Below, piece after piece: positions 20,511 to 22,634 of a DNA stretch of 64,000 nt (its first letter is position 1; each line of letters opens with the position of its first letter). The position numbers and the translations under genes were made by a program. Under the pieces are notes generated by a model. It did not search any database. It was not told where the DNA came from and was given only the letters and a program-made list of their open reading frames with translations. Source of the stretch: the human T2T-CHM13v2.0 reference genome, Homo sapiens; NCBI RefSeq assembly GCF_009914755.1, contig NC_060933.1, one strand, 5' to 3'.

Positions 20511-20542
20511 TGAACAGACACTTCTCAAAAGAAGACATTTAT

Positions 20543-20765
20543 TCAAGATCAGCCTGGGCAACATAATGAGATCCCATCTCTACAAAAAGATTAAGAAATT
20601 ATCCAGGCATTGTGGTGTACACCTATAGTCCCAGCTACCCAGGATGCTGAGGTGGGAGGATCACTTGAGCCCAGAGGTTCAAGGCTGTAGTGAGCCATGA
20701 TCACATGGCTGCACTCCAGCCTGAGTGACAGAGCAAGATCCTGTCTAAAAACAAACAAACAAAAA
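20543..20765 (+). mobile_element. AluJ-type, 5'-truncated (inside the insert)
   Basis: J-type gggaggatcacttgagcccagaggttcaaggctgtagtgagccatgatc and an (AAAC)n tail. The first ~80 nt are missing. Confidence 0.9.
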
Positions 20766-21655
20766 GGATAGTTCTGTTGCCTACAAAATGGAATAATAGC
20801 ATCTACCTCACAGAACAGTAATAGGGATTAAATAAGTGAATGTCTATTAAGTACTTAGGATAATATTTATGGTATTTGAAGCTTTCAATAAATGGTAGTA
20901 AATTACTATCATTAATAATGCATTAGACACATTTACACTACATATGTAATTTTATTTTCATCTCTTACTCCTTATTCATTTTAATTTATGGTAAATTTTA
21001 GCTTATGATTTCATGAACACTTAGCAGTGGAAAAAGAACATGGAAGATCTCATATAAATGCTCCAAAATGGAAATTACTTATGTCACTTCTTCTCACAAT
21101 TCCTTGGCTAGAAGTGGTTAAATGACTGTACCCAATCACAGGGTAGAAAGACAGAAAGTATTGGCTTTGTAGTGCCTAGACAGAGAGACAGCACTAATGA
21201 CTACCATACTCAATCAGTCACTTACCCACCCAACTACCTACCTACCTACTCAGTGCTGATCCGGTGTCTTTTATATGTCAGGCACTGGGCTAGGTCCTGG
21301 CCAGGCACAGATGAGTATATCCTGAAGGAGTTCAAATTGTACTTGTTGACCATTCCAATTGCATATACTCAAACTTATATCTAAACAACATGGAAAACAC
21401 TGAAAATTTTGTAATGTCTTGGCATTCATCTGACTCCGACACACAGATTGCTTCAAGAAATAGCCCTGAAGTGAGGCGAATTTTTAAAATGTTTTCATGC
21501 TTAACTTGTCATCATTATAATAGTTTACTGACCTGTTCTGTATGTACATTAAAGCACATGATAAAAAGGAACTTATTTATTGATACAATCATTCAGTAAT
21601 TAAAAATAATTGTTTTGCCTATCTTTATTATAATAAAAGAAACAAAATTGAAAAA
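20543..21655 (+). mobile_element. TPRT-inserted non-L1 sequence (orphan 3' transduction or retrocopied transcript 3' end)
   Basis: Perfect 16-bp TSD aaaagaagacatttat (20527-20542 / 21656-21671), AATAAA at 21632-21637, A-run from 21651. Contains AluJ, MIR, MLT1-like and L2 fragments. Confidence 0.88.
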
Positions 21656-22634
21656 AAAAGAAGACATTTATGCAGCCAAAAAACACATGAAAAAATGCTC
21701 ACCATCACTGGCCATCAGAGAAATGCAAATCAAAACCACAATGAGATACCATCTCACACCAATTAGAATGGCAATCAGTAAAAAGTCAGGAAACAACAGG
21801 TGCTGGAGGGGATGTGGAGAAATAGGAACACTTTTACACTGTTGGTGGGACTGTAAACTAGTTCAATCATCATGGAAGTCAGTGCGGCGATTCCTCAGGG
21901 ATCTAGAACTAGAAATACCATTTGACCCAGCCATCCCATTACTGGGTATATACCCAAAGGACTACAAATCATGCTGCTATAAAGACACATGCACACGTAT
22001 GTTTATTGCGGCACTATTCACAATAGCAAAGACTTGGAACCAACCCAAATGTCCAACAATGATAGACTGGATTAAGAAAATGTGGCACATATACACCATG
22101 GAATACTATGCAGCCATAAAAAATGATGAGTTCATATCCTTTGTAGGGACATGGATGAAATTGGAAACCATCATTCTCAGTAAACTATCGCAAGAACAAA
22201 AAACCAAACACCGCATATTCTCACTCATAGGTGGGAATTGAACAATGAGATCACATGGACACAGGAAGGGGAATATCACACTCTGGGGACTGTGGTGGGG
22301 TCGGGGGAGGGGGGAGGGATAGCATTAGGAGATATACCTAATGCTAAATGACGAGTTAATGGGTGCAGCACACCCGCATGGCACATGTATACATATGTAA
22401 CTAACCTGCACATTGTGCACATGTACCCTAAAACTTAAAATATAATAATAATGAAATAAAAAAATAAAAGATACACAACCTCTAAAAAAAAAATTGAAGG
22501 GAGCTTATAGGGAAAGGATGAGATGAGCTGGATACCTAGTTTAAGGAAAGTCTGCCAACAGGCCTTGCTTAGCCAATGCTTCTCTTCATTCATTCTATTT
22601 TAATAAAAAGATGTTTTTAAAAATCGATACCAAA

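What the first reader, a model, noticed from the sequence alone, without database searches (positions are those of the whole stretch)
20527..21671. 1.1-kb orphan transduction/retrocopy of old-repeat-laden DNA inserted into a young L1
Seen: the L1PA3 ORF2 breaks at 20542 and resumes at 21656, with the 16-mer aaaagaagacatttat duplicated exactly. The 1113-bp insert ends with AATAAA (21632-21637), 13 nt, then an A-run. The cut site reads 5'-TTTT/GA on the bottom strand. The insert holds a 5'-truncated AluJ (20543-20765), MIR (~20770-20910), an MLT1J/K-like piece (~21030-21210), an antisense L2 end (~21210-21345) and unique DNA, but no L1 or SVA sequence of its own. Established: TSD plus poly(A) plus an EN site is the signature of L1 target-primed reverse transcription. 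AluJ, MIR, MLT1 and L2 stopped transposing long before L1PA3, so they cannot have inserted here individually. Inference: a Pol II transcript from another locus was copied as one unit and 5'-truncated inside the Alu. It is either an L1/SVA 3' transduction truncated past its driver or the 3' UTR of an mRNA/lncRNA. Repeat annotation would fragment it into unrelated hits and hide it.
Basis: partly seen in the sequence, partly recalled or inferred. Interest (0 to 1): 0.82.

Follow-up and report, generated by a model that had tools for sequence, protein, structure and literature searches.

The report
Inverted retrocopy of PRCP intron RNA
A 1.1-kb piece of RNA transcribed from inside the first intron of the PRCP gene on chromosome 11 was copied by LINE-1 machinery into an older LINE-1 on chromosome 9, with its front part flipped; it is a clean but ordinary example of a known process.

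Summary
An exact 16-bp target-site duplication (20527-20542 and 21656-21671) brackets a 1113-bp insert that splits an L1 ORF2.

The predicted source locus exists and is the only other copy found, on contig C11 at 82,829,022-82,830,503. It has a complete Alu with its own duplication. It has no A-run after the AATAAA, so the A's in the copy are untemplated.

- **Two pieces, opposite orientation.** They join at a TTTT microhomology, and 376 nt of source between them are missing. This is the topology of an L1 twin-priming 5' inversion.
- **Source location.** It lies in intron 1 of PRCP on the gene's sense strand, about 6.2 kb below exon 1.
- **No driver element.** No L1 or SVA lies within about 21.5 kb upstream on that strand.

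The event is therefore best read as a retrocopy of an intronically polyadenylated PRCP transcript, not a true orphan transduction. Copy and source differ by 3.4%. This is a new member of a known kind, of low to moderate interest.

The parts
19981..19995 (+). Left target-site duplication of the host L1 (AAAAATGGAAGGGAG)
   Evidence: matches 22489-22503 at 14 of 15 positions.
19996..20542 (+). Host L1, left part (5'-truncated element; ORF2p residues about 904-1070)
   Evidence: colinear with the full-length L1 at 36495-42501, 96.55% identity; PDB L1 ORF2p, E=1.6e-89.
20527..20542 (+). 5' target-site duplication of the retrocopy (16 nt, exact)
20543..20999 (-). Inverted cDNA. It equals the C11 plus strand 82,830,047-82,830,503, which is antisense to the source RNA. 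It contains the partial Alu (20543-20765) and an old-repeat-like stretch.
   Evidence: 458-nt ungapped alignment (window 20542-20999, including the last TSD base), 17 mismatches (96.3%).
20996..20999 (.). TTTT microhomology at the inversion junction; both source segments match these 4 bases
   Evidence: both source strands aligned across the junction; alignments overlap at 20996-20999.
21000..21651 (+). Sense cDNA. It equals the C11 minus strand 82,829,665-82,829,022 and ends at the cleavage site.
   Evidence: 20 substitutions and two 4-bp indels.
21632..21637 (+). AATAAA poly(A) signal, conserved in copy and source
21652..21655 (+). Untemplated A's (4 nt; up to 8 if the first AAAA of the duplication belongs to the tail)
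   Evidence: the source reads ...AAATTGA then TATATAG..., with no A-run.
21656..21671 (+). 3' target-site duplication of the retrocopy
21672..22488 (+). Host L1, right part (ORF2p residues 1081-1275 ending near 22241, 3' UTR, A-rich tail)
   Evidence: PDB L1 ORF2p, E=1.9e-129.
22489..22503 (+). Right target-site duplication of the host L1 (AAAAATTGAAGGGAG)

Best explanation
An RNA polymerase II transcript from the minus strand of C11 (chromosome 11) was cleaved and polyadenylated 13-14 nt after an AATAAA inside intron 1 of PRCP, on the gene's sense strand. The L1 ORF2 protein then copied it in trans into a pre-existing 5'-truncated L1 in a LINGO2 intron on chromosome 9.

Proposed steps (all are inferred from the sequence; the shown facts behind each are listed in the For line):
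1. The L1 endonuclease nicked the bottom strand at TTTT/GA.
2. The exposed T's primed on the poly(A) tail and produced a 652-656-nt sense cDNA.
3. After second-strand cleavage 16 nt away, the top-strand 3' end primed a second cDNA 376 nt further upstream on the same RNA. This priming point lies inside an antisense Alu. The second cDNA ran about 457 nt towards the RNA 5' end.
4. The two cDNAs were joined at a TTTT microhomology.

The result is TSD, inverted 5' piece, sense 3' piece, short A tail, TSD. This is a twin-priming 5' inversion with an internal gap.

The transcript was most likely PRCP pre-mRNA, or a PRCP isoform, that ended at a cryptic intronic poly(A) site. I give that sub-claim about 0.55-0.6. 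The core claim (L1-mediated, twin-primed retrocopy of this C11 locus) I give about 0.9. The event has no evident function.
For: Shown directly:
- An exact 16-nt duplication flanks the insert. The host L1 is colinear across it.
- Every base of the 1113-bp insert is explained: 457 nt inverted, 652 nt sense, 4 A's.
- One other locus in the 3.1-Gb assembly matches it, C11:82,829,022-82,830,503, in two pieces on opposite strands at 96-97% identity or 95.7% and 96.3%.
- In the source, the AATAAA is followed by ...TTGA and then TATATAGATTTTTGT..., with no A-run. The A's in the copy are therefore untemplated and sit at a canonical cleavage distance, with T/GT-rich sequence downstream.
- The topology is as twin priming requires. 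The inverted piece comes from further upstream in the RNA, its 3'-most RNA end abuts the 5' duplication, and its 5'-most end abuts the sense piece. There are 4 nt of microhomology at the junction.
- TTTT/G counts as an L1 endonuclease motif in PMC12016303 (Table 1 legend, passage seen).

Source context:
- Peptidase_S28 exons lie on the C11 minus strand at 82,761,432, 82,786,775, 82,789,617 and 82,796,457.
- The last of these exons matches PDB 3N2Z, lysosomal Pro-X carboxypeptidase (E=2.8e-28).
- An ATG ORF with a signal-peptide-like start lies at C11:82,836,593-82,836,862 (minus strand), inside a CpG-rich block.
- The source therefore lies between that first exon and the exon carrying Pfam positions 2-41.

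No driver element:
- C11:82,830,504-82,852,000 has no L1 similarity to a window that holds a full-length L1; only Alu matches appear.
- There is no VNTR-type tandem array in L009 6500-10000 or L010, which together cover up to C11:82,842,000.
- The CCCTCT hexamer run is absent from 13 of 13 loci held at that time.

Precedents from papers:
- 5' inversions were seen in 3 of 23 processed pseudogenes and 165 of 897 germline L1s (PMC12016303, passages and section 8).
- A TMF1 semi-processed pseudogene ended at an intronic poly(A) signal (PMC4151081, passages).
Against: - The A tail is very short, 4-8 nt. New insertions have median tails of 27-39 nt. Shrinkage with age is my inference, not something shown here.
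- The 376-nt gap between the two cDNAs is larger than in the 132 of 287 twin-primed L1s whose cDNAs lie within 20 bp. The other 155 of 287 also exceed 20 bp.
- Complementarity of the top-strand primer to the internal priming site is weak. There is 1 terminal base pair and 7 of 14 matches, and 4.2% of 7655 positions in the transcribed interval do as well or better. Internal priming is not independently supported.
- The copy holds no PRCP exon or splice junction. The link to the PRCP promoter rests only on strand and position.
- Whether the poly(A) site is used today could not be checked.
- The exon-1-like ORF gave no PDB match. Its identity as PRCP exon 1 rests on my recall of the protein's N-terminus and on its position.
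Confidence: 0.8

Rival explanations
1. This is an orphan 3' transduction in the strict sense. A full-length L1 or an SVA once sat upstream of the source on the same strand in PRCP intron 1. It read through to the intronic poly(A) site, and reverse transcription never reached the element. The driver was polymorphic and has since been lost, or is absent from this haplotype.
For: The insert has the operational look of an orphan transduction: unique non-exonic DNA with a poly(A) end and a target-site duplication. SVAN would label it so, because at least 75% aligns outside exons (PMC12350158, methods passage). Lost or low-frequency source elements are reported for SVA transductions (PMC12593883, passage).
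Against: No L1 similarity lies in the 21.5 kb upstream on that strand. There is no VNTR up to C11:82,842,000 and no CCCTCT array in the loci held at that call. The PRCP promoter and first exon lie only about 6.2 kb upstream on the same strand and supply a transcript without any driver. No other copy of the segment exists in the genome, so there is no transduction family.
Confidence: 0.08
2. The mechanism is the same (L1-mediated and twin-primed), but the template was an independent, unannotated transcript with its own promoter inside PRCP intron 1, such as a lncRNA or a repeat-driven RNA, and not PRCP pre-mRNA.
For: The copy carries no PRCP exon or splice junction. Only about 1.48 kb of the RNA's 3' end is represented, so its start is unknown.
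Against: No CpG-rich block or other obvious promoter feature was seen between the source and PRCP exon 1. The only CpG-rich block upstream of the source within C11:82,812,001-82,842,000 is at 82,836,600-82,838,400 (one other CpG-rich window lies downstream at 82,819,001). Sense-strand position 6-8 kb inside a long first intron is typical for premature cleavage and polyadenylation; that is my knowledge and was not tested here.
Confidence: 0.25
3. The inversion arose by template switching and not by twin priming. The first cDNA reached position 82,829,669 and then jumped to the 3' end of a second, antisense RNA from the same locus.
For: The final sequence is topologically the same as under twin priming, and a 4-nt microhomology at the junction fits a jump. 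Weak primer complementarity at the left junction does not favour internal priming.
Against: It needs a second RNA from the opposite strand of the same 1.5-kb locus, ending exactly there. Twin priming needs only one RNA and is the common cause of such inversions: 18-22% of L1 insertions and 3 of 23 processed pseudogenes.
Confidence: 0.05
4. This is a DNA-level event (templated insertion during break repair) or an assembly error, with no RNA intermediate.
For: Microhomology at the internal junction and a very short A-run.
Against: The right end coincides with a canonical cleavage site 13-14 nt after AATAAA and carries untemplated A's. There is a 16-nt duplication and a TTTT/G nick site. The host L1 is exactly colinear across the insert. 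Copy and source differ by 3.4%, which does not suggest a recent artefact.
Confidence: 0.02

Closest known systems
Twin-priming 5' inversions of L1 insertions and processed pseudogenes (Ostertag and Kazazian 2001, recalled and not held here; surveyed in PMC12016303)
   Same: One RNA gives two cDNAs of opposite orientation. The inverted piece comes from upstream RNA and lies next to the 5' duplication. There is microhomology at the junction, and a target-site duplication, endonuclease site and A tail are present.
   Different: The template is intronic host RNA, not L1 or a spliced mRNA. The gap between the cDNAs is 376 nt, outside the within-20-bp class that holds 132 of 287 L1 cases.
Semi-processed pseudogene from an intronically polyadenylated transcript (TMF1 insertion into CYBB, described in PMC4151081)
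   Same: The parent gene's transcript ended at a poly(A) signal inside an intron and was retrotransposed by L1.
   Different: The TMF1 copy kept exons 1-8 plus intron sequence and had a 100-bp tail. This copy keeps only intron sequence, is inverted at its 5' end, has a 4-8-nt tail, and differs from its source by 3.4%, which points to an old event.
Orphan L1/SVA 3' transductions (Solyom et al. 2012, seen only as a reference entry; catalogued in PMC12350158)
   Same: Unique non-exonic DNA with a poly(A) end and a target-site duplication, without any L1 or SVA sequence in the insert.
   Different: A defining same-strand driver element upstream of the source was sought and not found within 21.5 kb.
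Classical processed pseudogene
   Same: Mobilised in trans by L1, with a target-site duplication and a poly(A) end.
   Different: It contains no exon and no splice junction of the parent gene.

Membership tests
L1-mediated (TPRT) retrocopy | Target-site duplication flanking the whole insert | tested here: met
   16 nt, exact. The host L1 is colinear across it.
L1-mediated (TPRT) retrocopy | Untemplated poly(A) at the 3' end, placed after a poly(A) signal of the source | tested here: met
   The source has no A-run after AATAAA+13-14 nt. The tail is only 4-8 nt.
L1-mediated (TPRT) retrocopy | L1 endonuclease-type nick site | tested here: met
   The bottom strand reads TTTT/GA. TTTT/G is an accepted motif in PMC12016303.
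Twin-priming 5' inversion | Two segments of one RNA in opposite orientation, with the inverted one from upstream RNA and its 3'-most end next to the 5' duplication | tested here: met
Twin-priming 5' inversion | Microhomology at the inversion junction | tested here: met
   TTTT is shared by both source segments.
Twin-priming 5' inversion | The two cDNAs abut on the RNA, with a small gap or overlap | tested here: inconclusive
   The gap is 376 nt. Only 132 of 287 L1 cases are within 20 bp, so larger distances are common.
Twin-priming 5' inversion | Complementarity between the top-strand 3' end and the internal priming site | tested here: inconclusive
   1 terminal base pair and 7 of 14 matches. 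322 of 7655 positions (4.2%) do as well or better.
Orphan L1/SVA 3' transduction | Same-strand L1 or SVA directly upstream of the source sequence | tested here: not met
   No L1 similarity in C11:82,830,504-82,852,000. No VNTR up to C11:82,842,000 and no hexamer array in the 13 loci then held. Only this one assembly was examined.
Orphan L1/SVA 3' transduction | The insert lacks the driver's own sequence and ends at a downstream poly(A) site | tested here: met
Classical processed pseudogene | Contains spliced exons of the parent mRNA | tested here: not met
   The source interval lies between the exon-1-like ORF (82,836,593-82,836,862) and the next Peptidase_S28 exon (82,796,457-82,796,579). The insert contains neither.
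Retrocopy of an intronically polyadenylated transcript of the host gene (semi-processed type) | The source lies in an intron on the gene's sense strand and ends at a poly(A) signal there | tested here: met
Retrocopy of an intronically polyadenylated transcript of the host gene (semi-processed type) | Physical link to the gene's exons or promoter, or documented use of the intronic poly(A) site | not testable with these tools
   The copy ends 5' at C11:82,830,503. No annotation or 3'-end sequencing data for chromosome 11 were available.

The most novel reading that the evidence does not exclude
This is a driverless retrocopy made purely of intron RNA. It would record that a cryptic poly(A) site about 7.8 kb into PRCP was used in the ape germline or early embryo. 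It also suggests that catalogues calling any non-exonic poly(A)-tailed insert an 'orphan transduction' (rule seen) contain an unknown share of retrocopies of prematurely polyadenylated pre-mRNAs that never had an L1 or SVA driver. Such inserts could then serve as a historical record of intronic polyadenylation in the germline.
Probability: 0.55. Interest if true: 0.4.

Novelty: new member of a known kind. Interest (0 to 1): 0.3.

Why it matters
The event itself is ordinary. L1 mobilises cellular RNAs in trans, and 5' inversions are common. Three modest points make it useful:
- **Annotation.** It is a fully resolved example in which repeat annotation alone (Alu, old repeats, unique DNA inside an L1) would hide a single retrotransposition event.
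- **Interpretation.** The apparent '5' truncation in the Alu' is really the start of an inverted second cDNA.
- **Classification.** A non-exonic retro-insert need not be a transduction. Here the nearest upstream same-strand promoter is that of the host gene PRCP, and no L1 or SVA is present. This bears on how 'orphan transductions' are counted in structural-variant catalogues.

No functional consequence for LINGO2 is evident. LINGO2 is on the minus strand (gene table supplied with the finding), so the insert's poly(A) signal is on the strand opposite to it.

Tried and rejected
- **Ostertag and Kazazian 2001 (PMC311219):** not held. The twin-priming model is cited from recall and from passages in PMC12016303.
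- **Pfam on the two L1 reading frames:** 0 families for 2 of 2 proteins. ORF2 identity was obtained from PDB sequences instead.
- **PDB search with the exon-1-like ORF (57 aa):** 0 matches at E up to 1. The gene was named from its last exon instead.
- **Genome search with window 21030-21350, to test the MLT1/L2 claim:** only the 2 known loci matched. The claim stays unconfirmed, not refuted.
- **Primer-complementarity test for internal priming:** not significant (4.2%).
- **Literature:**
  - 'retrocopy' plus 'intronic polyadenylation' gave 0 papers.
  - A five-term search including PRCP gave 72 papers holding at least 2 terms. None of the 15 listed contained PRCP.
  - I found no description of this insertion in those two searches. 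Supplementary tables of retrocopy and structural-variant catalogues were not examined and may list it.
- **DNA-level insertion or misassembly:** considered and rejected because of the untemplated A's at a canonical cleavage site, the 16-nt duplication and the 3.4% divergence.
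Full report
**1. The observation**

The 16-mer AAAAGAAGACATTTAT occurs exactly at 20527-20542 and 21656-21671.

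The DNA on the two sides is one L1. Positions 19996-20545 and 21656-22468 align colinearly to the full-length L1 elsewhere in the window (36495-42501, minus strand). Both align at 96.55% identity, and the two alignments overlap by only 19 nt, that is the 16-nt duplication plus 3.

The left flank encodes L1 ORF2p residues 904-1070 and the right flank residues 1081-1275, by the numbering of PDB entries 8SXT and 8UW3. Pfam recognised neither frame.

AATAAA is at 21632-21637. It is followed by 13 nt and then nine A's, of which the last four belong to the duplication. The bottom-strand nick site reads TTTT/GA.

The host element is a 5'-truncated L1 of about 1.36 kb. It has its own 15-nt duplication, matching at 14 of 15 positions, at 19981-19995 and 22489-22503.

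**2. The source**

I searched the window's own 3.1-Gb assembly with 20770-21650. The search found one other locus, on contig C11, but in two pieces on opposite strands.

A local alignment of window 20400-21800 to C11:82,822,001-82,832,000 refines this:
- Window 20542-20999 equals the C11 plus strand 82,830,046-82,830,503 (458 nt, 17 mismatches, no gaps).
- Window 20996-21651 equals the C11 minus strand 82,829,669-82,829,022 (20 mismatches, two 4-bp indels).

Together with four A's, these two pieces explain all 1113 bp of the insert.

The junctions were printed base by base:
- **Right end.** The source reads AATAAA...AAATTGA and then TATATAGATTTTTGTAATC..., while the copy reads ...AAATTGA followed by A's and the duplication. 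The A's are untemplated and sit at a canonical cleavage distance from the signal. T/GT-rich sequence lies downstream in the source.
- **Inversion junction.** Both source segments match the same TTTT (20996-20999).
- **Left end.** Homology starts at or one base before the end of the duplication.

The source holds a complete Alu of about 303 bp (C11:82,829,968-82,830,270). It is flanked by its own 14-nt direct repeat, GCAAGAGAACTATC as read on the minus strand. The copy begins 79 nt inside this Alu.

The 376 nt of source between the two pieces (82,829,670-82,830,046) are absent from the copy. They include the first 79 nt of that Alu plus unique DNA. They were therefore present in the source at the time of the event and are not a later insertion there (inference).

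**3. Topology**

The RNA runs on the C11 minus strand. The sense piece covers 82,829,669 down to the cleavage site at 82,829,022.

The inverted piece covers RNA from 82,830,503 (5'-most) to 82,830,047 (3'-most). Its 3'-most end lies next to the 5' duplication, and its 5'-most end is joined to the 5' end of the sense piece.

This is the arrangement expected from twin priming, in which one cDNA is primed on the poly(A) tail and a second is primed internally by the top-strand 3' end. I recall the model from Ostertag and Kazazian 2001, which is not held here. It is described in PMC12016303 (passages and section 8).

That survey reports:
- 5' inversions in 165 of 897 germline L1s, 328 of 1495 somatic L1s and 3 of 23 processed pseudogenes.
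- The two cDNAs lie within 20 bp of each other in only 132 of 287 cases.

A 376-nt gap is therefore not exceptional.

My test for primer complementarity at the internal site was not significant. There were 7 of 14 matches with a terminal match, and 322 of 7655 positions did as well or better. Internal priming is inferred from the topology and has no independent support from base pairing.

**4. What the source RNA was**

Peptidase_S28 exons lie on the C11 minus strand at 82,761,432-584, 82,786,775-957, 82,789,617-742 and 82,796,457-579 (Pfam positions 2-41). The 3'-most of these matches PDB 3N2Z, lysosomal Pro-X carboxypeptidase, at E=2.8e-28. The gene is therefore PRCP.

An ATG ORF with a hydrophobic, signal-peptide-like start lies at C11:82,836,593-82,836,862 on the minus strand. 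It sits within the only CpG-rich block upstream of the source in the 30 kb examined, at 82,836,600-82,838,400. One other CpG-rich window lies downstream, at 82,819,001. That ORF gave no PDB hit. I take it to be PRCP exon 1 from its position and from my recall of the protein's N-terminus.

The source therefore lies in the roughly 40-kb intron between that exon and the exon at 82,796,457. It is on the sense strand, and its 5'-most retained base is about 6.2 kb below the likely exon-1 donor.

Upstream of the source on that strand I found no candidate driver element:
- No L1 similarity up to 82,852,000, using as subject a window that contains a full-length L1. Only Alu matches appeared.
- No VNTR-type tandem arrays in L009 6500-10000 or L010, which together cover up to C11:82,842,000.
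- No CCCTCT hexamer run in any of the 13 loci held at that call.

No further copy of the segment exists in the assembly.

The simplest reading is a PRCP transcript that was prematurely cleaved and polyadenylated in intron 1. There is a precedent in the TMF1 semi-processed pseudogene, which ended at an intronic signal (PMC4151081, passages).

I cannot exclude two alternatives: an independent intronic transcript, or a driver element absent from this haplotype.

**5. Age**

Copy and source differ by 37 substitutions in 1097 aligned positions (3.4% ± 0.55; K2P 0.035). Six of the substitutions are in CpG context.

From recalled figures, this is about the level of human-orangutan divergence. It suggests an event in the common ancestor of the great apes, or somewhat later. 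This fits a host L1 whose closest genomic relatives are 95-97% identical (40 of 3757 candidates scored).

No other primate genome could be searched here. The date is therefore an inference, and the subfamily name L1PA3 is untested.

**6. Comparison and verdict**

The details change in three ways:
- The insert is two cDNAs in opposite orientation.
- The 'truncation in the Alu' is the start of the inverted cDNA.
- The source is intronic RNA of PRCP with no L1 or SVA driver.

Under the operational rule of one recent catalogue (at least 75% of the insert aligning outside exons; PMC12350158 methods passage) it would be labelled an orphan transduction. The defining upstream element was looked for here and not found.

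It is a new member of a known kind. It is a clean teaching example with a modest point about classification, and it has no evident function.

I found no description of this insertion in two literature searches. Supplementary catalogues were not examined and may list it.

Noticed in passing
window 22470-22493: Between the host L1's A-rich end (to about 22469) and its right target-site duplication lie 14 nt of non-L1 sequence (GATACACAACCTCT) followed by a run of ten A's. This could be a very short 3' transduction carried by the host L1, or a mutated tail.
   Followed up: no
window 36495-42501 (minus strand): A full-length (about 6 kb) L1 that is 96.55% identical to the host L1 fragment over the shared 1.36 kb. 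Its reading frames were not examined.
   Followed up: no
G000:C2:101979633-101980524 (minus strand): A contiguous Peptidase_S28 match covering Pfam positions 1-196 with 5 in-frame stops, plus a nearby piece covering positions 356-409. It looks like an intronless (processed) pseudogene of a Peptidase_S28 gene.
   Followed up: no
G000:C2:224736504-224831245 (minus strand): Several separate Peptidase_S28 exon-like matches spread over about 95 kb, most with in-frame stops. This could be an intron-containing pseudogene or a degenerate paralogue.
   Followed up: no
window 22636-22945: A full-length Alu lies just downstream of the host L1 (Rfam SRP-type hits at 22636-22752 and 22771-22916). It is unrelated to the finding.
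   Followed up: no
window 21181-21184 and 21231-21234 versus C11 source: The only two indels between copy and source are 4-bp gains or losses inside short tandem runs (AGAG and AACT next to an ACCT-type repeat). They look like replication slippage after the event. Positions are approximate, converted from alignment columns.
   Followed up: partly
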